From positions 118,792,001 through 118,856,000 of the forward strand of contig NC_043001.1 in the NCBI RefSeq assembly GCF_006345805.1: a DNA stretch of 64,000 bases, in the 5' to 3' direction. Under the pieces are notes generated by a model. The model ran no database searches and was not told the origin of the DNA. It saw only the letters and a program-made list of their open reading frames with translations. This document shows, one piece after another, positions 12,266 through 64,000 of this stretch (its first letter is position 1; every line of letters begins with the position of its first letter). The stretch comes from Octopus sinensis (taxonomy: Eukaryota). Both the position numbers and the translations under genes were made by a program.

Positions 12266-12952
12266 TAAAGGACCTAGGTATCTTGGTGGATTCCTCCTTT
12301 TCGCCTTCAGCCCAGTGCGTCCATGCTGCCAACAAAGCACGCGGAATTCTGTTCTTGATTCGACGGTCATTCGGAATGCTCACAGCAGCCATATTCCTAC
12401 CACTCTATGTCACGCTGGTGAGACCCATATTGGAGTATGGGATTCAAGCCTCTTCTCCTTATCTCCTCAAAGACATACAGCATCTCGAAAGAGTCCAGAA
12501 GCTGGCTACCCGCATGGTTCATGGTCCCAAAAATTTGTCTTATGAAGAAAGGCTGAGGACGCTCGACCTTTATTCTCTTAAAAAACGCCGCCGCCGTGGT
12601 GATCTCATTCTCGCTCACAACATCATAAGCGGAAAGTGTAACCTCTCGAAAGAGCTGTTCTTCACTCCTGCTCCAGAGCGTCGGCTGCGGGGTCATTCCG
12701 AAAAGTTCTACCTGCGACGATTTCATCTCATTCGAAGGAGAGGAGCTTTCTCCGTCCGGGTTGCGGATCCGTGGAACAAGCTGCCAGACGAGATGGTGAA
12801 GATGCCGACGACCGCTTTGTTCAAAGCCTCCCTGGACCTCAAGTGGCCTGAACTCTTTACATGAACACCACCCTGTACTTAACTCCATGTCCCCCTACAT
12901 GGCCTTGCTATTTGCTTTTGTGCCAAATTAACTAACTAACTAACTAACTAAC
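12266..12952 (+). mobile_element. 5'-truncated CR1-clade LINE (ORF2 C-terminus, 3' UTR, (TAAC)n tail)
   Basis: KDLGILVDSS, LYVTLVRPILEYG, LERVQKLATRMV, YEERL, RRRRGDLI, FSVRVADPWNKLP; near-identical to 25654-26337. Confidence 0.92.
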
Positions 12953-14555: not shown

Positions 14556-15163
14556 TGACAAGTGAGTTAGATAGGGTGAATAAAGGTAGGCAGAATACAG
14601 TCCCTTCCCACACAAGTCATGAGTTATAGCTTAGGAGGAATGAGTGGTAGGAAGATCTATGTGGTGGAGTAATGGGGAAGGCAGATATTCAAAATGCATA
14701 AATCCTATATTTTCTTTTCAGTTCTGGGTATCACGGAATGGAGAGAGACACATGCACTAAACCTGTGTGGGGGGAGGTCGGCTTATCTGCAGCACCACAT
14801 ATTGCCAGTTGACATAGTCATTTCCTTCATCAGATGTAACACTTGGAGAGTATTTTTCTTTGGTTTCTGTCTCCCACAGCTACCATTCACTTTGAATATT
14901 TGTGTGTGTGTGTGTGTGTGTGTGTGTAAACAAAAATGAGCTCAGAATGGCCACGAATTTGTTTATGAAAATCAGAGAAATACAAGTATATTGAATACCA
15001 TACAACATAAATTATTGATTTAGAGCATGTGCCACAATTGTCAAATGACAATTTAGAAAAAGCTCCAGATGGGAAGGGGAAATAATCTCAAGAATCAAGA
15101 ATTATCCAAAGTTGACAGACCAGAGGATATGGACAGGCTTATTGTCTGGAGATAAGCGGACAG

Positions 15164-15209
15164 TTGTCAACATATGTTTCTGCCTCAATAGGTATCATCA
15201 ACAAGACAA
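15164..15209 (-). ncRNA. Degenerate minimal type I hammerhead motif
   Basis: Minus strand ttgtcttg-TTGATGA-tacctattgaggca-GAAAC-atat-GTT-gacaa; stem III palindrome aacatatgtt; C3 changed to U and stem I imperfect. Confidence 0.35.
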
Positions 15210-15278
15210 TTATTCTAACTTCCAGCAGCCAAGGGATACATATCTATCTATATACGCAGAAATATATATACATATACA

Positions 15279-15313
<35 letters not shown>

Positions 15314-15316
<3 letters not shown>

Positions 15317-15890
15317 CGAAGACATGTTGGGGCAAGCGAAATCGAATTGAACCAGCCAGGATCCCTGGTCTGGTGGTACGTAAAAATCACTATTCGACTC
15401 GTGGCCGATGCCAGCGCCGCCTCCACTGGCTTCCGTGCCGGTGGCACGTAAAATACACCAATCTGACCGTACGACAGGCACCCATGCCAACCCCCTTGCT
15501 TGCGAAGACATGTTGGGGCAAGCGAAAACGAAATCGAAATCGAATTGAACCAGCCAGGATCCCTGGTCTGGTGGTACGTAAAAAGCACTATCCGACTCGT
15601 GGCCGATGCCAGCACCCCCTCGTTTGGCTTCCGTGCAGGTGGCACATAAAATACACCAATCCGACCGTGGCCGTTGCCAGCCTCGCCTGGCACCTGTGCA
15701 GGTGGCACGTAAAAAGCACCCACTACACTCACGGAGTGGTTGGCGTTAGGAAGGGCATCCAGCTGTAGAAACACTGCCAGATAAGACTGGAGCCTGGTGC
15801 AGCCTTCTGGCTTTCCAGATCCCCGGTCGAACCGTCCAACCCATGCTAGCATGGAGAACGGACGTTAAACGATGATGATGATGATGATGA
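15314..15890 (+). mobile_element. RTE LINE 3' UTR with an internal duplication of about 185 bp
   Basis: Unit ttgcgaagacatgttggggcaagcg... at 15314 and 15500; CpG-rich (young-looking); (GAT)n tail. Confidence 0.85.
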
Positions 15891-15920
15891 TACTTTATTT
15901 TAAGCAGCAGAAAATTCAAC

Positions 15921-15968
15921 AAAATCTGTTACTCTGAGTTTCTCGTTGCCGTTCATCAGACAGTTTTT
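15921..15968 (-). ncRNA. Minimal type I hammerhead ribozyme motif (PLE-type)
   Basis: Minus strand aaaaaCTGT-CTGATGA-acg gcaa cga-GAAAC-tcaga-GTA-ACAGatttt: intact core, stem I ctgt/acag, self-complementary stem III actc-a-gagt. Confidence 0.6.
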
Positions 15969-16068
15969 GCTAGAATGGAACTTATATATCAATTCAATCT
16001 ATACTCTTACAAACACTACACCTTTAAAAAGAAATGGACTTGTTTGATTGGCCCTTTAGAAAAAACGG

Positions 16069-16107
<39 letters not shown>

Positions 16108-16670
16108 CGTGATTGACCGGGCTATCAGATGCTGCTACACATCGCCGGTCACAATGCGCTTCGCATTGTTTTAGCCTTCAAATGACGCCACCCCACTGCA
16201 CATACATACATACACACATACACATATATCCATACATACAAGTACCGGCACACACGTGCATATCAAGAAATCTAACATCACACACTGAGAGATACATATG
16301 AACAAATCCTTTATCCCACATGCATAGATTCACATATACAACTATGCATATTAGCTAAAACATGTTCATACACACATGGACACTGATGTTATAAATTAGC
16401 TATGCACCTCTTTATGTCTTGTTATTTTTGTCATTTCATTTTAGTGTTGTTTTATTCACTCACAAATAAAACGGAGTCTATTTCTGTGAGTGAAAAGAAA
16501 CAGACACACAAAAATAAAATTATGATGAGGTCTGGTCAACTTATCCAAATTTAGTTTCACACAGACAATTAAATGACATAGTCTTACTGTGATATCTCTA
16601 AACAATTAAACATAAGAATATTAATAAATATCTCACTTTCTCAAGATTGAATTTTAGTATTAATATAGTA

Positions 16671-16699
16671 CTAGCAATGCACCCCAGTGTTGCCAGGGT
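16671..16699 (-). mobile_element. Helitron-like 3' terminus
   Basis: Minus strand accctggcaacactgggg hairpin, short spacer, then CTAG followed by T. Confidence 0.4.
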
Positions 16700-17693
16700 G
16701 GTATCCCATCTCAGATCCCAAAGATTCAGCTTTATAAGCTACACTAATTGTCTTGCCCTCAACAAGGTTAAAAAGTCCTTCTAGCCCTGTACTATCTCTG
16801 CTCAAAAACACTTGTGAGTTTCAAAGTGGAAAAGCTTCACCCTAGAAAGAAAGATTAGGAAAGTGAGCGACAACTTTAAGTGAGGTATTGGGAGAAGTTG
16901 CAGTTTGCTGAGAATGCATTTATTATTCAGAGAGTAAGACAGGAGACTGAGGTGCCAGAGCATATTCTCAAAGTAACATGAACAAGGTGAAGAGAGCCTA
17001 ATGACAGACCACTCATGGTGAGGTAAGGAAGGTTGCAAACATATAATCCCTTCTCTCTCTACTTAAGCACCATGATACAGAAGGACAAAGGGGGGAAGAA
17101 CTGTAGAGTATAGGTGGTAGTAGTGATGGGGGTATGGAGAATGTATAGGTCCAATGCTTTCCTCTGAATTACAGGGGGTATGGTATGAAGAGTAGGAGAA
17201 GAGGTAATAAAGTGATGGAAGGGAATAGAATAGATAGAGTGGACAGAAGAGATGGTGGAGAGGTATGATGGTATAGAATAGGCAAAAGGTAGTCGGGGAA
17301 CTGTACATTATCCAATTATTTTAACAGGCATTTTGATAAAACTTCTTTCAGTTTCCTCATGAGACATTGGTTAATCTGGAGCTAAAGTTGAAAGCACTTG
17401 CCTAAGGTGCTGCACAGAAGGACTGAACAAAAAGCCATGTGGTTGCAAACTTCTTAAGCACATAGCCATGCCTGTGCTTATATATTTCATTATCATTGAC
17501 GTTTAATATCTGCTTTCCATGCTGGTATGGGTTGGATGACTTGACATAGAGCTGTCCAGACTTCAATTATCTGTTGTGACATGGTTTCTATGGCTGGATA
17601 CCCTTCCTAATGCCAACTGCTTAACAGAGTGGGCAGGGTGCTTTTTAAATGCCTCCACCAGAGGTGCTTTTTATATAAATATATACATATATA

Positions 17694-18085
17694 GGCGCAG
17701 GAGTGGCTGTGTGGTAAGTAGCTTGTTTACCAACCACATGGTTCCGGGTTCAGTCCCACTGCATGGCACCTTGGGCAAGTGTCTTCTACTATAGCCTCGG
17801 GTCGACCAAAGCCTTGTGAGTGGATTTGGTAGACGGAAACTGAAAGAAGCCCGTCGTATATATGTATATATATATATGCGTGTGTGTCTTTGTGTGTCTG
17901 TGTTTGTACCCCTAGCATTGCTTGACAACCGATGTTGGTGTGTTTATGTCCCCGTTACTTAGCGGTTCGGCAAAAGAGACCGATAGAATAAGTACTGGGC
18001 TTACAAAAGAATAAGTCCCGGGGTCGAGTTGCTCGATTAAAGGTCGTGCTCCAGCATGGCAGCAGTCAAATGACTGAAGCAAGTA
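17694..18085 (+). mobile_element. tRNA-derived SINE family A, full length
   Basis: ggcgcaggagtggctgtgtggtaag head through cagtcaaatgactgaagcaagtaaaa tail. Confidence 0.9.
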
Positions 18086-18400
18086 AAAAAAAAAAAAAAG
18101 AAAAAAAGATATATACACACACACACACACATACAGCACATTATTTTATTCTTTTACTTGTTTCAGCCATTTGACTGTGGCCATACTGGAGCACTGCCTT
18201 TAGTTGAGCAAATCGCCCTCAGGATTTATTCTTTGTAAGCCTAGTCTATTTTGCCGAACTGCTAAGTTACAGTGACATAAACACACCAGCATTGGTTGTC
18301 TAGCAATGTTTGTTTTTTTGGGGGAGGGGGGCAAACACACACACAAACATATACAAACACATATATGTGTGTGTGTGTATATTATATATAAATAGCATTA

Positions 18401-18898
18401 TTAAATCTCTGAATGAGATGTAAACAGTAACCGCTCGACAATGTAAAGTATAATAGCCATCTCAATATGGCTAACCACAAAGTGGGGTGTGTTACTGTAG
18501 CTCCTCAGCCCCAGGAGATCATCGTCTCCAGCTGGCTTTAGGCACACTATCTGTGCCCTTATGGTATTTGCAAAGGAAGGCCATCCCTTTCTCGTAAGCC
18601 TAAGTGATACGCACGGACTGCAGTTTCGAGGTTGTTGCCTCTTGTCAACGGCGGTAATCACCGGATTATGATGAAAGGTGATTACCGCCCGTTGACAAGA
18701 GGCAACAACCTCGAAACTGCAGTCCATGCGTATCACTTAGGCTTACGAGAAAGGGATGGCCTTCCTTTGCAAATACCATAAGGGCACAGATAGTGTGCCT
18801 AAAGCCAGCTGGAGACGATGATCTCCTGGGGCTAAAAGCTACAGTAACACCCACCCTTTGTGGTTAGCCATATTGAGATGGCTATTATACTTTACATT
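18401..18898. mobile_element. Inverted-repeat non-autonomous PLE-like element with HHR motifs at 18610-18653 (-) and 18686-18730 (+)
   Basis: Arms 18440-18662 / 18677-18898, 14-nt loop, few mismatches; cgccg-TTGACAA-gagg caacaa cctc-GAAAC-tgca-GTC-cgtgcg. Confidence 0.7.
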
Positions 18899-18911
18899 AT
18901 ATATATATATA

Positions 18912-19450
18912 TATATTATATTAAATTAGAGACAAAACCACTATTATGCAAATCAAACAATGAAAGACTTAATCCAATACATAAATTAAATTATATTATT
19001 TAGATATGTAACAATTATTAAAAAATATAATTAATATCCACTACGATCGTTTCCTGTCTTCTGTCATCAAATTTTTGAGTACCAGACATTCATCAGACAT
19101 TCATCAGGTGGTTTCAAAATTTTCTTGGCGAGTTTTAAAACTCGCCAAGAAAATTTTGAAACCACCTGATGAATGTCTGATGAATGTCTGGTACTCAAAA
19201 ATTTGATGACAGAAGACAGGAAACGATCGTAGTGGATATTAATTATATTTTTTAATAATTGTTACATATCTAAATAATATAATTTAATTTATGTATTGGA
19301 TTAAGTCTTTCATTGTTTGATTTGCATAATAGTGGTTTTGTCTCTAATTTAATATAATATAATATTTTACTATAAAATTGGATTCAATCCTAAATCTGAT
19401 TTTTCCCTGTAAGTTTGGATTTATTCCCTAATATTTATTATTAATTATAT
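18912..19450. mobile_element. Spacerless palindromic PLE-like element with HHR motif at 19162-19235 (+) and its mirror on (-)
   Basis: Palindrome 18912-19361 centred at 19136/19137; ccac-CTGATGA-atgtct...agacag-GAAAC-gatc-GTA-gtgg; right arm extends about 90 nt further. Confidence 0.75.
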
Positions 19451-19456
19451 ATATAT

Positions 19457-19514
<58 letters not shown>

Positions 19515-19927
19515 CATAACAGGTTTCTTTCAGCTTTCATCTACCAAATCTACTCACAAGGCCTTGGTTGGCTCAAGGCTATAGACGCCCAAGTTGCCAC
19601 ACAGCAGGACTGAACCCGGAACCATGTGGTTGGTTAGCAAGTTACTTATCACACAGCCATGTTTATTATTACTTTTGCCCCCAAAATTACTGATGCTAGT
19701 GTTATTTTTTTTTCCATTTAAGATGTTTCAGCAAAGAGACAAGAAAATAATGACCTCCTCCTTTCCCTTAAGAAAAGAAATATTAACTTACATAGAAAAT
19801 GTAATGACAAAAATAAATACAAAATTGATATAATTCTAATCAAACTGAATTTTATGTACCATTTTTTTAATTTCCCAGACATGACAGTATTGTGGATCAG
19901 TTATCCATCACTTCAAACACCAAGATA

Positions 19928-19960
19928 CTGGGTTCTCATTCCTAAGGTATTTTTATGACG

Positions 19961-20008
<48 letters not shown>

Positions 20009-20325
20009 TCACTGCCTGGAATCGAACTCGGAATCTGGGGGTTAGTAGCCTGCGCTCTAAACCATATGATGTAGTGGTGAAGAGCACGGGCTACTAACCC
20101 CAATATTTCGAGTTCGATTCCAGGCAGTGACCTGAATAATAATAATAATAATAATAATACCAATACCAACAACAACAACGGAAAAATACCTTAGGAATGA
20201 GAACCCTGGTTCAAAATTCCTCATGGACACCTGATGAAGGCTGGAGAGTACATCAGCCGAAACTTAACAACAAACAAGATGAAGCCAAATATCCGTCAAA
20301 TGTAAATAATGTAAACAATCCTCAC
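19928..20325 (+). mobile_element. tRNA-headed, HHR-tailed short element with an inverted partial copy upstream
   Basis: tRNA-like 20066-20134 (tgatgtagtgg A-box, gagttcgattcc B-box), (AAT)n, then gacac-CTGATGA-aggctg..cagcc-GAAAC; 19928-20064 is its reverse complement. Confidence 0.75.
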
Positions 20326-20709
20326 CCCACGTTCAGAAATTTTGTTTTCAATACCAATTTCCATATAATTGGAATCTACATCATCCAAAGCGTATTTGCA
20401 GAGAATTTCACTAAAAAATAATTATTTTTCCGGAAGTCACGAGGGCAAAAAAGTCGCTGGGAAGGAACACATGTGGAGATATATCTAAATAAGATTTTTA
20501 TGTAAATTTTATGTCTTAGAAGTTGGTGTAGGAAAGTAACGGAGAATACTGACTCCTCACCTATTTTATTTAACTGGGACACTCAATCCATTTTTGAATT
20601 TTCCCAGGTTGTTTTAGTTTCATCAGTTACTTCGTAAGATTTAGGTGCCTAAAACTAAAGACCACCAACGCCAGCATATACATATCTTTATATATAGGTC
20701 AAACTAATA

Positions 20710-21490
20710 TAAAAAAGAAATGTGCGCTCGTGAACGGGGATGGGGGAGATGACTCAGAAAGTTCCCATTGTGAATGTTCCGAGACGTCTCACCACAGCCA
20801 AAAAAAACTTGCGGATCTTTTTGGTTTGAACGGCAGTTTTTCTAGCAGTGTCATATGAAATTGTCACCCATAATTATGACCCTAGTATCGATCTATTGCA
20901 TTTCAATCTATTTTAGGGTTAGGGTTACGATTAGGGGTGGGGGGAAGGGTATCTTTTGTTCTTCACAAATGTAAATATACCCAATCTGTTTTTTAAACGA
21001 GGGACATATTCATACGGCACAGAATGTTGTTTACCTCAATGGACGTCAGTGATTGGTTGAAATTGCAGAAATTGAAGAAAAAAAACAAATATCTTACAAA
21101 CTATAGAATTTTCTCAATAAAGCCAAGATGTTTTATAAACACATTCTACCAATATACGAAGTTTAAATTTTTTAGTTACTTAAAAATTATGTTAAAAACT
21201 TCAGTTCAAACCGAAAAGATCCAAACTTGCTATAAACGAATAGGAAAAAAAAAAAAAAAAAAGCGCCATCGCGGTGATGCGTGGGAGGGGGAGAGGACTC
21301 GGAAAATTCACATCGTTTTTTCATATTCGTTTACTGCGAGTGCGCATTTTTCTTTTCATATTCGTTTACTACATGTTGTTGTACACCTATTACACTATTT
21401 TTTTTTTTTGCCTGTGGTGAGACGACTCGGAACATTCACGATGGGAACTTTCCGAGTCTTCTCCCCCACCCCACGTTCGCGCATTTTTTT
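20710..21490. repeat. Inverted-repeat element (arms about 20710-20807 and 21400-21490) interrupted by a Merlin-like MITE
   Basis: gaaagttcccattgtgaatgttccgagacgtctcaccacag versus ctgtggtgagacgactcggaacattcacgatgggaactttc. Confidence 0.6.
20813..21222. mobile_element. Merlin-like MITE with internal TTAGGG repeats
   Basis: TIRs ggatctttttggtttgaac / gttcaaaccgaaaagatcc; exact 8-bp TSD aaacttgc (20805-20812 and 21223-21230). Confidence 0.8.
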
Positions 21491-21755
21491 CATATTCGTT
21501 TACAGCAAGTTGTTTTACAACATATTACACTGTTTTTTCTTTTTTTGTTTTTGTTTTGTTCGGATCAAACCCTTTAGTAACACACGTCGCGAAAACAAAG
21601 AGCTGTGGGTTCGAGTCGCATGCGTTCAAGAACCCTAACTTTTTTTTGGGGGGGTGAGAGCTTAAATGCTCGAGTATTTGACTATTTTCTTTAGTCATTG
21701 CAGTGATTGCTTATAAGCTTTAAGTTTATAAAACATTATTGTCATTATTTACAGG

Positions 21756-21789
<34 letters not shown>

Positions 21790-22089
21790 GAGAGAGAGAG
21801 AGAGAGAGGCGTGCGCTTTCGTTGACATAGTGAGAAAAATTGAAAAAATCGGTGCTTTCCGAACGAAGTTCCTTGCATCGATTGTAACATGTATCAATGA
21901 TGCGCTTTTTCTATTTGAATGTGTGTATATAAATAAACATACGTCAGGGATATGTGACTGTGTATACATATCTGTATACTTTTACGAAACAAGTGTTCAA
22001 AAAAATCAAGAGACGAATCTAATATTTTTACAGTCAGAAATGAAGAATGCGATCTTAAAATATCACTTGTTGCACCTACATAGGTCCAC

Positions 22090-22162
22090 ATTCACACATA
22101 CATACATACATACATATGTATATATATATATATCATACATACATACATGCATGCATACATAC

Positions 22163-22243
<81 letters not shown>

Positions 22244-22272
22244 ACATACATACATGCATACATATATATATA

Positions 22273-22328
<56 letters not shown>

Positions 22329-22629
22329 ATATATATATATATATATAATGAGATGTATTTGACCTAAGAACGTGTACTGAAACGGAAATAATTATACTTT
22401 AGAAGGATTAGTTTAGCTATTTGCAGTGGAATAGTGCCAGAGTTAGGTTGCAGAAGTGCGACGAAAATTCAAACTGAAGGTATAAACGAAAAGTTAAAAG
22501 TTTTTGTGTTCTTCAATATATAAAATAGTTCTTCCACGACGTAATATTATGTAATATATATATATATATAATGTGTGCTATGCGTACCGAATACTCTTCA
22601 CCTACCGTTGATAAACACTTGCGCGCGCG

Positions 22630-22678
<49 letters not shown>

Positions 22679-22729
22679 ATATATGTATATGTATATATAT
22701 ACATTATATATATATATATATTATATATG

Positions 22730-22777
<48 letters not shown>

Positions 22778-22848
22778 ATATATTATATATATATATATAT
22801 TATATATATATATTATATATATATATATATATGTATATATATACATTC

Positions 22849-22881
<33 letters not shown>

Positions 22882-22886
22882 GTATG

Positions 22887-22923
<37 letters not shown>

Positions 22924-22946
22924 ATATATATCTATATATATATATC

Positions 22947-22978
<32 letters not shown>

Positions 22979-22985
22979 ATATTTT
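22090..22985. repeat. Long (TA)n/(TACA)n microsatellite blocks
   Basis: Direct inspection; about 22090-22350 and 22630-22985. Confidence 0.95.
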
Positions 22986-22986
22986 A

Positions 22987-23146
22987 AGGAGTGGCTGTGT
23001 GGTAAATAGGTTGCTTACCAACCCACATGGCTCCGGGTTCAGTCCCACTGTGTGGCACCTTGGGCAAGTATTTTCTACTATAGCCTCGGGCTGACCAAAG
23101 CCTTGTGAGTGGATTTGATAGACGGAAACTGAAAGAAGCCCATCGT
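22987..23146 (+). mobile_element. SINE family A head
   Basis: ggagtggctgtgtggtaa...gaaagaagcccatcg. Confidence 0.85.
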
Positions 23147-24171
23147 ATAGATCATCTTTATATATATATAAAGATGATCGTTCAATTCGTTGCTATTCGA
23201 AAGTTCTCGCTCGATCTTTCAGGTGATAATCTACTTTAGAACATGTATTGAGTACTCTTTCTAGTTTTTGTCAAACCAAATATGTGTGTGTGTGTGTTAA
23301 GTGGTGGGTTGGAGTTGTCCTAACACCAACAGAGTCGGCTTAGTTCGAATAGCAAAGGCAGAGACGAGAATAGATGGGCAAATGGAAGTGAAAGAGAAGA
23401 GAAAAGCTACGAACAAAATATTTGGAATACGTACCAATAAATGTCAATGTTATAAGTTAGCAAAATGACCAATAAACCATGTAGAGAAGGAGAATAGAGT
23501 GAGAGGGCATGAAGGGAAATAGTAAGATAGAGAGAGAGAGAGTTAGGTAGATAGATAGATAGATAGAGCTAAGCGGAGAGATGGGGAGGTAATGAGAGGT
23601 AGTTAGAGAAATAGATAGAGATGATAGAGAGAGAGAGTTGAGAGAAAGAGAAATGGGTAGATAGAAGGATAAATACGTGTGAAGAGAGATTGAGATGTGA
23701 GAGAGGGAGAGGCAGAGGAATGGAAAGCGATAGATAGATATGTAGGGGGGTGAAGTATGAGAGAGAGGGAGATAAGCAGATATGTAGAGAGAGAGGTAGA
23801 GAGAGAGAGAGAAGTGTTTCGCTGACAGAGATGTTTACATTTGTGACCAAGGAAGTGTGAATACAGAAGCGGTTTGACTTGTCTTCTTTCTTTCATTCAT
23901 TCGATTTCGACGCAAAACCCCGACACCATTTTCGTGGCCTCTTCTTGCAATGTTCCCTCATTTATCGTTTTTGTGGCAAAAATAAAAGAAATTATTTGGT
24001 GAATGTTAACAACATGGCCGCGTGCCCCCAGCATGCATTGCGCCGACGACATGGACGCCAGACTCGTTGCCAGCGAGTGGTAGCGGTGGTAGTAGAAGTA
24101 GTAAGTAAATGTAGTAGGAGGAGGGGAGAAGGGGAGTAGCAACATCATTGACAGTCGAAACAACGGAAACC

Positions 24172-24376
24172 TCTACGAGGTCTCTCGATATACTAGAAAT
24201 AGCAGCCAAATTCTTTCAAAACACACCCTAATATTCGCAGAACATTAGGAAAAGGACATGATAGATAATGTAGTACTGGATCCCATGCACATTAGGAATA
24301 GACTGATGGTCAGGGCTATAATGTTTTTGACCGCAGGTCTACTCAATCACGGCTGACTTGGGGTTAAACAACTGCA
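24172..24376 (+). repeat. Old dispersed repeat family E (ctagaaatagcagccaaa ... ggctgacttggggttaaacaac)
   Basis: Diverged copies at about 37530, 40685, 41945, 51270, 51712, 57000, 58490 (-) and 59275; CAA-rich tail suggests a retroposon. Confidence 0.5.
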
Positions 24377-25057
24377 ACGGAATGTCTACGTTGTCGCTTG
24401 AACAGGTGGAAATAGCAGCTATACTTCTTCTCTCAAATCGCACCTACGAACAATACGATCCCAGATACACCCAGAATGGCGTGATGGTGATGAATGCTTT
24501 TTTTTTTATCATATCTTGTTTTGCTCAGTCAGGACCAGCCTGGGACAGACACACCGCCACCAACACCAACAAACAATAACAGCAGCAGCAGTATATAAGG
24601 TATCTGTTACAAGAACAGCAATAACAATAGCGACGGTAACCACTTCAACAACTGTAGAAATAACTGCGGAAAATGTTTACCATTAGACTCATCTCGTTCT
24701 AAATGTGTGGTTTTACCTAATGAAAAAAATGATCTCCGATAGTTGTAATTAGATTCGTTCAAAGTACATAAAAAAACATAGCAAAAATAAATACATTTCA
24801 CCTTCAAAGTGAGACGAGTAATAACAACTACAAAAACAATGTCAAAACGGGACGAGCGACAGTGTTTCTAATCAGAGTAATATTTAGAAGAACTACAATA
24901 AACAGCAGCAAAAGAAGCAGCAGTTGGCGTTTCTATGGCAACTTGTCAACAGAATCGCTTGTAGCGGCCAGTCAGGCGTCAGAGAAACGAAAATTTTCTT
25001 TCCTAACACTCACCAAAAAAGAAAAAAAATTCGCTTCAGCACACGCATACACACACA

Positions 25058-25098
<41 letters not shown>

Positions 25099-25127
25099 AC
25101 ACACACACACACATTAACATATACATA

Positions 25128-26337
25128 CTGGTAATGGAAGAATTGGTGACGCGCATCCTCGATGATAGTGATGCTGTTGACATCGTTTTATTGGACTTTG
25201 CCAAAGCTTTTGACTCGGTAAACCACCGCCTATTACTTGTCAAGCTTCAAGCATATAGTTTCCATCCGGATATTGTACGATGGGTTGGTGCCTTCCTCTC
25301 AGATCGCTCCTTCCAAGTCCAAGTTAATGGTTCGCGGTCCGACGTCTCCAGTGCGAGCAGTGGCGTGCCTCAAGGTTCAGTGCTTGGGCCCTTATTGTTT
25401 TTAGTCTTCATAAATGACTTGCCCGACGACCTCACGCAACATACCCTTCTATTTGCCGACGATGTCAAACTGGTCGCTCCTCGCGGTGATATAGAGGATC
25501 TTCGTCGATGCCTCCACCAAATTTGGAGGTGGTCTAACGAATGGGACCTGTGTTTGAACGTGTCAAAGTGCTGTCATCTGCCTGTTGGCTCTCCTCCTGC
25601 AACTCAACTTGATTTCGAGCCGGGTCGTCTGCTGCTGGAGAGGACCGATCAGGTAAAGGACCTGGGTATCTTGGTCGATTCCTCCTTTTTGCCTTCGGTC
25701 CAGTGCGTCCATGCTGCCAACAAAGCACGCGGAGTTCTGTTCTTGATTCGACGGTCATTCGGAATGCTCACAGCAGCCATATTCCTACCACTCTATTGCA
25801 CGCTGGTGAGACCCATATTGGAGTACGGGATTCAAACCTCTTCTCCTTATCTCCTCAAAGACATACAGCATCTCGAAAGAGTCCAGAAGCTGGCTACCCG
25901 CATGGTTCATGGTCCCAAAAATTTGTCTTATGAAGAAAGGCTGAGGACGCTCGACCTTTATTCTCTAGAAAAACGCCGCCGCCGTGGTGATCTCATTCTC
26001 GCTCACAACATCATAAGCGGAAAGTGTAACCTCTCGAAAGAGCTGTTCTTCACTCCTGCTCCAGAGCGTCGGCTGCGGGGTCACTCCGAAAAGCTCTGCC
26101 TGCGACGATTTCATCTCAATCGAAGGAGAGGAGCTTTCTCCGTCCGGGTTGCGGATCCTGGAACAAGCTGCCAGACGAGATGGTGAAGATGCCGACGACC
26201 GCTTTGTTCAAAGTCTCCCTTGACCTCAAGTGGCCTGAACTCTTTACATGAACACCACCCTGTACATAACTCCATGTCCCTCTACATGGCCTTGCTATTT
26301 GCTTTTGAGCCAAAAATTAACTAACTAACTAACTAAC
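25128..26337 (+). mobile_element. 5'-truncated CR1-clade LINE with most of the RT domain
   Basis: LDFAKAFDSVNHRLL, SGVPQGSVLGPLLFLVFINDL, LFADDVKL; one frameshift near 26157; (TAAC)n tail; the upstream part of ORF 24924-26186 is read-through of a CA repeat. Confidence 0.95.
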
Positions 26338-26376
26338 ATATGAGCCAAAATAGAAAGCGTTACCAATATTAATGAT

Positions 26377-26661
26377 ATTATTTACAATTGACAGTTATTT
26401 GTCCTCATCTTGTTTGTTGTTAACACAACGTTTCGGCTGATATACCCTCCAGCCTTCATCAGGTGTCTTGGGGAATTTTCGAACCTGGGTTCTCATTCCT
26501 AAGGTATGAGAACCTAGGTTGGAAATTTTCCCAAGACACCTGATGAAGGCTGGAGAGTATATCAGCCGAAATGTTGTGTTAACAACAAACAAGATGAAGA
26601 CAAATATAGGTCAATTGTAAATAATGTACATAATTCCTCATCTCTTAAAAATAGAACTGTA
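26377..26661. mobile_element. Inverted pair of the HHR tail of the 19928-20325 family; HHR motifs at 26422-26467 (-) and 26535-26580 (+)
   Basis: Arms 26377-26496 / 26506-26625; minus strand gacac-CTGATGA-a-ggctg gagggtatat cagcc-GAAAC-GTT-gtgtt is intact. Confidence 0.8.
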
Positions 26662-26979
26662 GTATTAATGACATCAAATGTTGAAAGAATGGCCAGTGTG
26701 AAAGGACCAATTCTGAGCATAAAGAAATGAAAGAAGGGCTCTTGTCCAGTTGATCAGGCACCCGTGGCTTTTGTGGGCTTTTCCACGAGGACCTTTAAAG
26801 TACCTCCCCTATTAGGACTTTTACCTTGTTCAATTTTATTTATTTATTTATTGTTTACACGATGAAAACCCTTTGTCTCGTCTTGTGTTGTCTTTACGTT
26901 GTTTGCATATCCTTTAATGTTGTTTTATGTAAGCCCTTGTGGCTAATAAAAGAATGAATTAGTAATGACATCATTTAAA

Positions 26980-28440
26980 ACGGTGAGCTGGCAGAATCGT
27001 TAGCATGCCGAGCAAACTTAGCAGCAACTCGTCCGTTTTTACGTTCTGAGTTCAAATTCCACCGAAGTCGACTTTGCCTTTCATCCTTTCGGGGTCAATA
27101 AATTAAGGACCAGTGAATCACTGGAATCGACTAGTCTTCTCCTCACAAATTCCAGGCCTTGTGCCTTTAGTAGAAAGGATTATTTATGACATCATTTAAG
27201 CCTGCGAGCTGTTAGAATCGTTATCTTGCCGGGCAAAGATGCTTGGCGGTATTTCGACCGTCTTTACGTTGTGAGTTCAAATTCCGCCGAGGTCGACTTT
27301 GCCTTTCATCCTTTAGAGATCGATAAAATAAGTACCAGTTGAGTACTGAGATCGATGTAATCGACTATCTCCCTTCACCAAATTTCAGGCCTTGTGTTTA
27401 TAGTAATCCTATAGGATTATTAATGACATCAAAAATGTGGCGAGCTGGCATTATCGTAATCACACCTGACAAAATGCTTTTGACCGACAGATTAAAAAAA
27501 TATTTTTTTGTAACTAAACACTTTCGAACTTCGGACACAGGTAGAATGTGTCATATAAAACATCTTTTACCCTTAGCATTTTTGAGAAAGCTTATATTTA
27601 CGAAGTTATTTCACGTTAAAGTAGTCGTATTTCGGTAATTTCAACCAATCAATGACGTGTATTCAGCTGAATAAAATTACTGCGGTTGTTTGTCAACAAG
27701 AACTTCCGGCGGTGTATATTTCGTTTGTCACTGTTATTTATGACAACCCTAACCCTAAAACCCTAACCCTAACACCCTAGCCCTAAAACCCTAACCCTAA
27801 CCCTAAAACCCTAACCTTAAAACCCTCAAGTTAAAACCTGTACAAACGCACGATATCATAAATAACAGTGACAAACGAAAAACCCACTGCCGATAGTTTT
27901 TGTTGACTAACAACAGCAGTAATTTTATTCAGCGGAATACACGTCATTGATTGGTTGAAATTACCGAAATACGACTACTTTATCATGAAATAACTTCGTA
28001 AATATAATCTTTCTCAAAAATGCTAAGAGTAAAAGATGTTTTATATGACACATTCTACCAGTGTCCGAAGTTCGAAAGTGTTTAGTTACAAAAAATTATT
28101 TTTTAAATCTCTCGGTCAAACGGTAAAGATCCTCGGCATTTCCTCCGGCTCCTTACGTTTCGAATTCAATTACCACTGAGGTCCATTTTATCTTTTATCC
28201 TTTTAGGATGGGTAGAATAAGTACCAGTCAAGTTATTGGGATCAACTAAACCCTCGCCTCAGAATTTCAGACCTTATGTATTTTGAACAAAATATTATTA
28301 ACAGGCCATTAAGGTGACAGGTTGGCCGAACAAACGCTTAGCGACATTTCTTCCGACTCGTTCTGAGCTCAAATACCGCGGAGATCGGTTTTACCTTTCA
28401 TCCTTTCGGGAAAGATAAAATAATTACCAGTTGAACAATG
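26980..28440 (+). mobile_element. Four head-to-tail SINE family B copies (starts about 26980, 27200, 27437, 28310)
   Basis: Repeated gagctggcagaatcg head and cctttcatcc...accag domain; the third and fourth copies are interrupted by DNA elements. Confidence 0.8.
27478..28132. mobile_element. Foldback Merlin-like MITE: about 265-bp TIRs around a (CCCTAA/CCCTAAAA)n core
   Basis: Arms 27478-27743 / about 27856-28120; right end ggtcaaacggtaaagatcc; arms share sequence with the 20813 family. Confidence 0.8.
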
Positions 28441-62523: not shown

Positions 62524-64000
62524 GTAGTTTTATTTTTATAGCGTGCTTTCACTTCACTACCGAGCACAGCTCTGTGTGTCTTGGGTATGTGCTGTGATTT
62601 GTTGTGATGCTCTGATGGTTATTGTATGCAAAGTGTTCTGCGTAGGATGTGTGCAGTGCCTAGTAGTGCAATTTTCTGTATGTTATATGTGTTTGTAAGT
62701 CCTGGTTTTTTGTTATGTATTTGTCTGAATATTTTTTTATCATGCCTAATGCACCTACTATGATAGGAATTGTTTCTGTTTTCAGATTCCACATTCTAGT
62801 TACCTCTATTTCCAGGTCTTTGTATTTTGAGAGTTTCTCCATTTCTTTTAGAGACACGTTGTCATCAGCCGGTATTGATACATCAATTAGAAAGCATTTT
62901 TTTTCTTCAAGATCTCTGACAACTATATCTGGTCTGTTGGCCTTAATTTCTCTATCTGTGTGTATCGGCATATCCCAGAGTATGGTTGCTTTCTCGTTTT
63001 CTGTGACCTTTTCTGGTGTGTGCCTATACCATCTTTTTTCTGTTGTTATTCCATAATGTTGGCATAGCTTCCAATGTATGTAGGTTCCAACTCTGTCATG
63101 TCTGTGAATATATTCCTTCTTAGCCAAGACTGGGCAGCTAGAGATAATATGATTTATTGTTTCTTGTCCATCTCCACATATTCTGCAGTTACTTGTAAAT
63201 TTCTTTTCATTACATGTTTTTGGTAATTTCTGGTGGGGAGGCTTTGGTCTTGTGCTGCAATTAAAAATCCCTCTGTTTCTGCTTTGAGTCCTGAGCTTCT
63301 CAACCATTGCTGGGATTTTTCTTTGTCTATTTCTTTTGCGTTTAGTTTAGTCCAGTATTTACCATGAAGGGGCTTTTCTTGCCATCGTTTTATCATGGTT
63401 CGTTGCTGTTCTATTTTTAGTTTGGATTTCATTTGTCTTAGAGCTTTTGTTGTTTCTTCATCTTCTTCTTCTTCTTCATGTTTATTAGGTGGTATGATTT
63501 CTTGTTTGTATTTGTCAGCTTCCTTAAATACTGAGAACAGTTTTTTGTTTTGCTCGTGTTTTGCCGCTATCTGGATCAGTTTTCCTTCCTTCTGAAGTAG
63601 ATATTTTTGCAGTCCTATGGTGGTTATTTATAGTAGTTTTCCAGCTGTATAAGGCCTCTACCACATTCTATACGTTGTATATATAGTCTTTCTATGTCAG
63701 ATTTTGGGTGATGCATCCTAGATCCTGTCATTATTTTTCTTGTTTTCCTATCTATTTTGGTCAGTTCATTTCGTGTCCAGTTAAGGATATTGTAGCTGTA
63801 ACTTATAACTGGGACAGCTAAAGTGTTGATACCTATTATCTTGTTTTTAGCATTGAACTCTGTGTTTAGTATTGATCTAACTCGTCTATAATATTCTTTT
63901 TTTTTTTTTCTCTTCATTGTGTGTGTTGTGTCTTATCTAGTTCATGGATTCCTAAGTATTTGTAAGTTTGGCTTTGGTCTAATTCTTTTATTTCATTGGT
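62524..64000 (-). mobile_element. R4/Dong-clade non-LTR retrotransposon 3' part (RT end, CCHC knuckle, RLE endonuclease); continues beyond the window
   Basis: YKYLG, CRICGDGQETINHIISSC, RHD, NRPDIV, LIDVSIP, K..KY.DL, IPIIVGALG; stop at 62619-62621; 3' end abuts (TAA)n; about four frameshifts. Confidence 0.93.

What the first reader, a model, noticed from the sequence alone, without database searches (positions are those of the whole stretch)
15164..26661. Synthesis: several families of short hammerhead-bearing elements, four inserted as inverted pairs
Seen: at least four sequence-unrelated families share CTGANGA-like...GAAAC cores with a palindromic stem III (actgcagt, acgatcgt, aacgtt, actc-a-gagt). 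Four loci consist of a longer copy plus a shorter inverted copy. Established: minimal HHRs with palindromic stem III that act as dimers, and inverted pLTRs, are PLE hallmarks; retrozymes are non-autonomous HHR retroelements. Inference: a diverse non-autonomous PLE/retrozyme-like system that seeds long hairpins in the host genome. I cannot confirm novelty without a database search.
Basis: partly seen in the sequence, partly recalled or inferred. Interest (0 to 1): 0.75.

Follow-up and report, generated by a model that had tools for sequence, protein, structure and literature searches.

The report
Penelope retrotransposon ends inserted head-to-head
These short ribozyme-motif repeats are end pieces of several Penelope-type jumping genes plus one non-coding hitchhiker, often pasted in as back-to-back pairs, which is a known footprint of these elements; the unusual part is one family whose end carries a tRNA-like segment that likely acts as a promoter making thousands of short copies.

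Summary
In detail: nine hammerhead motifs (five intact) in five unrelated repeat families, four loci head-to-head. The reading 'non-autonomous system' is only partly right. Family D is the 3' end of an autonomous Hydra-type Penelope-like element (PLE) with an intact 727-aa ORF. Family C is the terminal repeat (pLTR) of a Penelope/Poseidon-type PLE. Family B is likely a Hydra-type pLTR, mostly copied from spliced RNA. Only family A is a true non-coding 352-nt tandem retrozyme. Genome-wide, pairs are head-to-head, join a tailed long arm to an untailed short arm (93 of 112) and lie in one target-site duplication of about 12 bp (39 of 54 in C): the published PLE footprint. Arms decay neutrally; no hairpin function is shown. 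Beyond print as far as I could search: C's pLTR holds a tRNA-like head where 57 of 70 copies start, and A is hit at one site by a Tx1 LINE (26 of 30). The scan noted both before on other DNA, and C-like and A-like pairs elsewhere in this genome. Verdict: real, mostly known biology, one unusual variant.

The parts
15021..15236 (-). Family E: old, decayed single copy with degenerate hammerhead (15164-15207; C3 changed to T, stem III ACATATGT)
   Evidence: relatives 74-82% identical; no PLE ORF within 1.5 kb of 25 loci
15890..16071 (-). Family D: 5'-truncated 3' end (short, untailed form) of a young autonomous Hydra-type PLE; intact minimal hammerhead about 15926-15964
   Evidence: 98% to the 3' end of the element in L143, which holds a 727-codon open frame
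18397..18678 (-). Family A long arm with 42-nt tail; U3-A8 hammerhead, stem III ACTGCAGT; piece of a 352-nt non-coding tandem unit
18677..18898 (+). Family A short arm, no tail, ends at (TA)n
18907..19136 (-). Family B short arm, no tail; spliced form
   Evidence: 100% complementary to the long arm over 225 nt
19137..19436 (+). Family B long arm with 70-nt tail; hammerhead with stem III ACGATCGT; axis on the TTTAAA palindrome near the inferred RNA start; an 11-nt duplication in both arms
19928..20064 (-). Family C locus 1 short arm: part of tRNA-like head, (AAT)n, first 27 nt of the hammerhead segment; no hammerhead
20063..20328 (+). Family C locus 1 long arm: tRNA-like head (about 20063-20137, A and B boxes), (AAT)n, hammerhead with stem III deleted, tail
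26365..26376 (+). Left copy of the likely target-site duplication of family C locus 2
   Evidence: 10 of 12 identical to 26661-26672 by reading; 7-nt perfect core
26377..26507 (-). Family C locus 2 short arm, intact minimal hammerhead 26427-26462, no tail
26507..26660 (+). Family C locus 2 long arm with tail; hammerhead with one core change
26661..26672 (+). Right copy of the likely target-site duplication
   Evidence: read directly

Best explanation
The nine hammerhead motifs belong to five unrelated repeat families, of which C and D are 3' ends of protein-coding Penelope-like retrotransposons (PLEs), B is likely one and A is a non-coding tandem repeat with the same insertion footprint, and each inverted pair is one insertion likely made by PLE enzymes copying RNA from two start points. 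Shown: pairs are head-to-head, one arm ends at the tail end and the other 30-70 nt earlier, a duplication of about 12 bp brackets the pair, and both arms carry the same subfamily variants. Inferred mechanism: the PLE protein nicks both strands about 12 bp apart; each nick primes a cDNA, one from the tail end and one from the tail start; the two cDNAs run towards the RNA 5' end and are joined by annealing at microhomology or at a short palindrome near the RNA start, sometimes after a fold-back. Inferred source of the short copies: promoters inside the 3' pLTR give short RNAs that are copied to their 5' end, a TATA/initiator with a spliced intron in B and a tRNA-derived, likely RNA polymerase III promoter in C; A is copied from tandem or circular RNA in trans. 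The palindromic stem III is predicted to let two hammerheads fold as a dimer; cleavage was not tested. The genomic copies are likely neutral relics.
For: Partners: intact RT plus C-terminal nuclease ORF upstream of D in the arrangement inverted end - ORF - end (L143). RT/GIY-YIG-like ORF runs into the C head in 23 of 30 ORF-seeded loci (Pfam RVT_1 E 1.4e-10). B tail is followed by a Hydra-type ORF in L180. Geometry: head-to-head 20, 25, 67 pairs against tail-to-tail 1, 1, 0 in 30, 30, 130 loci of A, B, C; long+short in 17/20, 22/25, 54/67; non-simple duplication scoring 8 or more in 39 of 54 C pairs against 0.6% in mismatched flanks, mostly 11-14 bp. Arms agree at subfamily sites: A 322 of 336 (145 discordant expected), B 100 of 101. 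Fixed starts: 57 of 70 genome-order C copies stop within 20 nt upstream of the head; 2,594 head-start 25-mers against 735 for a 25-mer just upstream; 16 of 21 B arms are spliced and many start at an initiator-like site 30 nt after TATAAG. A: 0 of 30 junction-seeded loci have another shared upstream sequence, 24 show the unit's own tail by BLAST. Covariation in A: positions 3/8 are U-A 40, C-G 11, U-G 1 of 52; stem III self-complementary in 48 of 52, four different perfect palindromes. Literature: inverted 5'-truncated copy, tail and TSD (PMC8557442, PMC3846280); both strands cut and extended, two RT start sites matching the tail (PMC11167929).
Against: No biochemistry here. Twin priming cannot be told from fold-back self-priming, which PMC3846280 proposed, by these data; the 100% identical B arms with a private duplication fit fold-back or later homogenisation better. 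No enzyme partner for A was found, and none for E. B's link to its ORF rests on one contig. Pol III transcription is not shown: Rfam does not score the head as tRNA, a TATA-like box 34 nt upstream could serve Pol II, and RNA reads of a related organism show both strands equally, 75-80% running on into unrelated sequence, with no pile-up of starts. TSDs of B and part of A lie in (TA)n and are not informative (6 of 22 against 20% control). Clade labels rest on motifs read by eye, without a tree; Pfam does not score either nuclease domain.
Confidence: 0.82

Rival explanations
1. All families are non-autonomous retrozymes that spread through circular RNA and seed functional long hairpins.
For: Family A fits a retrozyme. 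Inverted joints occur in RNA reads of a related organism. Most sampled copies have no ORF beside them.
Against: C and D are ends of ORF-bearing PLEs; C shows 2 tandem arrangements in 130 loci against 67 inverted; arms are not homogenised.
Confidence: 0.08
2. Same elements, but the inverted arm is made by fold-back self-priming of one cDNA (or from an antisense RNA), and the untailed end is set by endonuclease cleavage during resolution.
For: Axes often sit on natural palindromes (TGCCC-RY-GGGCA in C, TTTAAA in B); short inverted pieces of the head occur upstream of many C copies; arms share subfamily variants; proposed in PMC3846280 and, for the tail, PMC8557442.
Against: Many junctions are asymmetric with internal gaps; one A pair (L041) has arms differing at 6 of 17 subfamily sites, which one cDNA cannot give; in vitro two RT start sites on both strands (PMC11167929).
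Confidence: 0.25
3. The C head is a dead tRNA-SINE relic in the pLTR; copies stop there because a Pol II start or the hairpin at the head halts reverse transcription, not because of Pol III.
For: TATAAG 34 nt upstream and a hairpin at the start; no Rfam tRNA score; short and ORF-linked copies are equally diverged (0.061 versus 0.065) and differ at one of 79 sites with p 0.0015, not significant after correction.
Against: A and B boxes are intact at tRNA spacing and the head's first base matches tRNA base 1; the drop upstream of the head is abrupt, 57 of 70, while the 13 longer copies run 22-744 nt.
Confidence: 0.35
4. The palindromes are assembly artefacts of fold-back long reads.
For: Window locus B is 100% palindromic over 225 nt.
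Against: Arms differ by 2-10% at most loci, end at two fixed positions and are bracketed by target duplications; opposite-strand joints are in raw reads.
Confidence: 0.02

Closest known systems
EN+ PLE insertion architecture (Adineta Pen2a, PMC3846280; overview PMC8557442 Fig. 2)
   Same: Head-to-head inverted 5'-truncated copy, optional tail on one end, one TSD around the whole unit, palindromes at the junction.
   Different: Here most inserts hold no ORF; TSD about 12 bp (8-10 bp reported for Adineta); tails 30-70 nt.
Minimal hammerheads of metazoan pLTRs (PMC4209133)
   Same: Extra base between positions 9 and 10.1, U3-A8 variant, palindromic helix III, many families per genome, pairs on opposite strands 100-700 bp apart, intron ending next to helix I.
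   Different: Nothing essential; new families only.
PAc, Poseidon of Anolis (PMC11167929)
   Same: Penelope/Poseidon-type ORF (family C); two 3' end classes matching two RT start sites.
   Different: The text read reports no tRNA-like segment and does not use the two starts to explain inverted pairs.
Hydra clade PLEs (PMC8557442 section 11)
   Same: RWK, DKT-like, CxxC and CxH motifs, short element, (TA)n targets, hammerhead (families D, B).
   Different: Linker lacks one Cys in the L143 copy, DMT for DKT; clade not tested by a tree.
Metazoan non-LTR retrozymes (PMC7229834; bioRxiv 10.64898/2026.07.22.740005)
   Same: Family A: 352-nt non-coding tandem unit with a type I hammerhead; PLE mobilisation already proposed.
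   Different: A has a minimal, dimer-type core, short arrays (up to about two units and a part seen) and shows the PLE tail/inversion/TSD footprint directly; circles not tested.
Schistosome Sm-alpha/Sj-alpha hammerhead SINEs (via PMC6765202) and TRIMp3 Helenus/Cassandra (PMC10886601)
   Same: Pol III-type promoter joined to a hammerhead, or placed inside a terminal repeat.
   Different: Those are non-autonomous; in family C the tRNA-like head lies inside the terminal repeat of the protein-coding element itself.
Target-specific Tx1 LINEs (Tx1L, Keno, Tx1-Mar; PMC4494074)
   Same: A Tx1-type LINE inserts at one site of another repeat.
   Different: The target is family A, 8 nt before its hammerhead; not among the targets in the passages read. 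Not in the window.

Membership tests
EN+ Penelope-like elements | Linked ORF with RT and C-terminal GIY-YIG-type nuclease (families C, D) | tested here: met
   RT by Pfam for C, nuclease motifs by eye (Pfam gave no hit)
EN+ Penelope-like elements | Linked ORF (family B) | tested here: inconclusive
   B tail precedes a broken Hydra-type ORF in one contig; 3' pLTR of that copy not seen
EN+ Penelope-like elements | Linked ORF (families A, E) | tested here: not met
   A: none upstream in 30 junction-seeded loci; E: none within 1.5 kb of 25 loci
EN+ Penelope-like elements | Minimal hammerhead in the terminal repeat | tested here: met
EN+ Penelope-like elements | Adjacent inverted 5'-truncated copy, head-to-head, tail on one arm | tested here: met
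   long+short 17/20, 22/25, 54/67
EN+ Penelope-like elements | One TSD around the whole inverted unit | tested here: met
   C 39/54 versus 0.6%; A 9/17 versus 8.9%; B uninformative
EN+ Penelope-like elements | RT phylogeny within PLE clades | not tested
   no reference set on hand; motifs only
Hydra clade (D, B partners) | RWK, DKT, CxCX5C linker, CxxC/CxH, (TA)n insertion | tested here: inconclusive
   RWK, CxxC, CxH and (TA)n present; DMT and a one-Cys-short linker in L143, DKT in L147, full linker in a relative in L115
Penelope/Poseidon clade (C partner) | GxKF and DKG motifs, no zinc-finger linker before the nuclease | tested here: met
   read in L186, L188, L189, L200
Non-LTR retrozyme (family A) | Non-coding head-to-tail unit of 170-400 nt with type I hammerhead | tested here: met
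   352-nt unit; covariation
Non-LTR retrozyme (family A) | Self-cleavage and circular RNA | not testable with these tools
   laid only 7-22 reads per run, uninformative
tRNA-derived SINE (short C copies) | tRNA-derived head with A and B boxes | tested here: met
   aligns to all 15 distinct genomic tRNAs above shuffles, best tRNA-Arg(TCT) z 7.0; not scored by Rfam
tRNA-derived SINE (short C copies) | Lineage independent of the autonomous partner | tested here: inconclusive
   head is part of the autonomous element; no clear diagnostic sites
tRNA-derived SINE (short C copies) | Pol III transcription | not testable with these tools
   one search shows passenger-type transcription only

The most novel reading that the evidence does not exclude
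A protein-coding Penelope element captured a tRNA gene as a Pol III promoter inside its terminal repeat and thereby spawns its own SINE; more broadly, every PLE terminal repeat with a promoter acts as a self-made SINE, and the palindromic hammerhead stem pairs two RNA molecules so that a dimeric enzyme can prime both DNA strands and build the long-plus-short inverted pair.
Probability: 0.35. Interest if true: 0.68.

Novelty: new variant of a known kind. Interest (0 to 1): 0.42.

Why it matters
The PLE transposition cycle and the role of its hammerhead are open questions (PMC8557442, PMC11167929). Thousands of short, precisely ended pairs give a genomic read-out that predicts nick spacing (about 12 bp) and two priming sites for three families, which can be tested in vitro; family D offers a young intact protein. 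A tRNA promoter inside an autonomous element's terminal repeat would be a route to SINE birth that bypasses the usual head-plus-borrowed-tail fusion. The finding as first framed (hammerheads in inverted pLTRs) is already in print.

Tried and rejected
Rfam on the window and on C heads: only miRNA-hairpin noise, no hammerhead or tRNA; ARAGORN none in the window. Monomer folding gives no significant z-score except -1.99 for C, as expected for dimer-type motifs, not used as support. Absence of T4 runs in the C unit as a Pol III sign: rejected, the 850 nt upstream lack them too. The 2.6-kb direct repeat of A in C3076 as an autonomous A element: rejected, the ORF between is a Tx1-type ORF1 insertion. 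Hydra-type ORFs beside A in L178, B in L179 and C in L181 as partners: rejected, L178 and L179 end in their own hammerhead-like motifs and the C pair in L181 has its own 12-bp TSD. Gene conversion between arms: not seen. No RNA holder listed for the C unit; family A reads too few. One search used a wrong upstream reference, so its upstream columns were dropped and redone. Literature searches for a tRNA-headed pLTR or PLE-dependent tRNA SINE listed no such report; Repbase, Dfam and subscription papers were not searchable, and no supplements were opened.
Full report
Observation. The region holds nine hammerhead-like motifs in five families that share no alignable sequence. Five are intact by a structural descriptor; the first strict scan found 4 against a shuffle mean of 0.31. 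Four loci are inverted pairs with 5' ends joined: A (18397-18898), B (18907-19436), C locus 1 (19928-20328) and C locus 2 (26377-26660). D (15890-16071) and E (15021-15236) are single. Two C motifs are damaged and one C arm has no hammerhead. Rfam sees only hairpin noise. The window lies in a 2.7-Gb animal genome; no call named the host, and 'cephalopod-like' is my recollection of the repeat landscape, echoed by earlier notes of the scan.

Each family is a genome-wide repeat: 875, 3,392, 1,143, 1,355 and 462 first-look candidates for C, A, B, D, E, of which 40 were scored per search. These loci are top-scoring hits, not random samples, except where stated.

Family D. Relatives are 98-100% identical. 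In L143 the order is inverted D end, a 727-codon open frame, 3' region ending in D. The protein has RWK, a DKT-like motif, YRDD, and CxxC/CxH around the nuclease end, as described for the Hydra clade (PMC8557442 section 11); Pfam gives no hit. The window copy is a 182-nt truncated end of this autonomous element.

Family C. The unit is a tRNA-like head, (AAT)n, a minimal hammerhead and a tail. In 30 head-seeded loci 24 had the hammerhead segment directly downstream and all 30 had part of it in one arm. Upstream of the head in several loci lies the end of an ORF; of 30 loci seeded with that ORF piece, 23 run into the head and 19 into the hammerhead segment. [quoted passage not shown] The head aligns with all 15 distinct tRNAs fetched from this genome better than shuffles, best with tRNA-Arg(TCT) (z 7.0), but Rfam does not score it. 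A 25-mer at the head start has 2,594 matches, one just upstream 735 (the first has three degenerate positions). Of 70 head starts taken in genome order (70 of the first 72 listed), 57 stop within 20 nt upstream and 13 run 22-744 nt into the element; 40 have an adjacent inverted arm. Short and ORF-linked copies are equally diverged and not clearly separate lineages. So C is the terminal repeat of an autonomous PLE that contains a tRNA-derived segment, and most copies begin there. Pol III transcription is inferred; a TATA-like box 34 nt upstream and a hairpin at the start are rival causes.

Family B. Two 5' forms exist. The long one has a 674-nt GT-AG segment that the short one lacks; 16 of 21 distinct arms that cover the hammerhead start are of the spliced form, three of the other five retain the intron by reading, and many spliced arms start at an initiator-like site 30 nt after TATAAG. 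In one contig the B tail is followed by a broken Hydra-type ORF, head-to-head with inverted long-form B copies. B is therefore likely a pLTR whose short spliced RNA is copied to its 5' end. An intron ending at helix I is reported for Drosophila Penelope (PMC4209133).

Family A. The unit is 352 nt. In 30 loci taken in genome order at the unit junction, the sequence upstream is the unit's own tail (24 by BLAST, 3 more by short matches) or a truncation; no other upstream sequence is shared. Across 52 distinct copies core positions 3/8 are U-A in 40, C-G in 11, U-G in 1, and stem III is self-complementary in 48 with four perfect palindromes; stem II also covaries (the pattern fixed the outer A and GT, and related copies are not independent). 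This is a non-coding retrozyme-type repeat under past selection for a dimer-type hammerhead. Its enzyme donor was not found. Family E is an old family (74-82%) with a weaker motif.

Insertion geometry. Head-to-head pairs number 20, 25 and 67 in 30, 30 and 130 loci of A, B and C; tail-to-tail 1, 1 and 0. One arm ends at the tail end and the other at a fixed point 42 (A), 70 (B) or about 30-40 nt (C) earlier in 17/20, 22/25 and 54/67 pairs. A non-simple duplication brackets 39 of 54 C pairs (0.6% in mismatched flanks), mostly 11-14 bp, and 9 of 17 A pairs (8.9% control); B sits in (TA)n and is uninformative. Arms are as different from each other as from other loci, so there is no homogenisation. 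Arms share subfamily variants (A 322 of 336, B 100 of 101, C 67 of 76); one A pair differs at 6 of 17 sites.

Mechanism. Shown: one insertion, two end classes, one source in nearly all cases. Known: PLE protein cuts and extends both strands and starts at two sites that delimit the tail (PMC11167929); inverted truncated copy, tail and TSD are typical (PMC8557442; PMC3846280). Inferred: twin priming from nicks about 12 bp apart, with the cDNAs joined at microhomology or a palindrome near the RNA start; fold-back self-priming remains a live rival and may add the short inverted head pieces. Also inferred: promoters in the 3' pLTR supply the short RNAs. RNA reads from a related organism (3 runs, 1 study) cover C on both strands alike, 75-80% run on into unlike sequence, show opposite-strand joints and no pile-up of starts: passenger transcription, with no support for a discrete RNA or a hairpin function.

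Comparison and novelty. Minimal dimer-type hammerheads, U3-A8 cores, many families per genome and opposite-strand pairs are in PMC4209133; retrozymes as PLE dependants in PMC7229834 and bioRxiv 10.64898/2026.07.22.740005. A tRNA-derived head inside an autonomous PLE's terminal repeat was not found in searches; nearest are schistosome hammerhead SINEs (PMC6765202) and tRNA-bearing LTRs of TRIMs (PMC10886601). Papers seen: parts 1-2 of 5 of the bioRxiv preprint; parts 1-2 of 4 of PMC11167929 and PMC4209133; part 1 of 3 of PMC13282606; section 11 and passages of PMC8557442; passages only of PMC3846280, PMC6765202, PMC6962438, PMC7229834, PMC8969392, PMC10886601, PMC4494074 and 10.1101/596502. No supplements were opened; the repeat library of PMC13282606 and the HHR lists of PMC8557442 may already hold these families. 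The scan's earlier notes, consulted after my own tests of C and before the last Tx1 test, describe the tRNA-headed element, the long-plus-short pairs and Tx1 targeting on other DNA; they are not independent support.

Side result. A Tx1-type LINE (ORF1 with zinc knuckle, ORF2 with endonuclease and RT, 5.3 kb, about 16-bp duplication) sits in family A 8 nt before the hammerhead. Of 30 top-scoring 3' ends, 24 are followed by A at unit position 75-78 by a strict rule and 2 more by reading; 2 are followed by the target and a second element, 1 by another hammerhead repeat, 1 by unrelated DNA.

Verdict. Real and well above chance, mostly the known footprint of Penelope-like elements; interest 0.42, carried by the tRNA-headed terminal repeat and by the testable end geometry.

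Noticed in passing
L344:1512-6821 (minus), L342, L091, L349-L377: A Tx1-type LINE family inserts at one site of family A, 8 nt before the hammerhead (26 of 30 3' ends); tandem stacking at the site in L348 and L370; a second family about 30% identical in ORF1 uses the same site in L091; L377 is followed by a different hammerhead repeat.
   Followed up: partly
L147:4100-5900 (minus); window 19137-19165: Family B exists as intron-retaining (674-nt GT-AG) and spliced copies; spliced copies start at an initiator-like site 30 nt after TATAAG.
   Followed up: partly
window 19166-19187 and 19086-19107: Both arms of locus B carry the same 11-nt duplication in the hammerhead, not seen among the listed haplotypes of other copies, and are 100% identical over 225 nt; fold-back copying, conversion or consensus polishing could explain it.
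   Followed up: no
L041:1497-2078: An A pair whose arms differ at 6 of 17 subfamily sites, suggesting two different template units in one insertion.
   Followed up: partly
flanks of fetched loci (417 kb): Further hammerhead families with other palindromic stems III (ACCTAGGT, ACGCGT, ACCGGT, ACCATGGT); about 29 strict motifs per Mb.
   Followed up: no
L002, L003, L006; window 62660-63627: 3' ends of what looks like an R4/Dong-type LINE (label recalled) sit in the (AAT)n tract of family C copies; a broken element of that look lies at the window's end.
   Followed up: no
window 25134-26314 and 12266-12927: Two 5'-truncated copies (97% identical) of an RT-encoding LINE ending in (TAAC)n; Pfam RVT_1 E 6.7e-23.
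   Followed up: partly
window 27479-28120: Another long inverted repeat (265-nt arms, 93%) from a dispersed repeat family, no hammerhead found by the scans; possibly a MITE-like element.
   Followed up: no
L178, L179, L180, L115, L181: Several further Hydra-type PLE families, some with Asn-rich inserts and their own hammerhead-like 3' motifs.
   Followed up: partly
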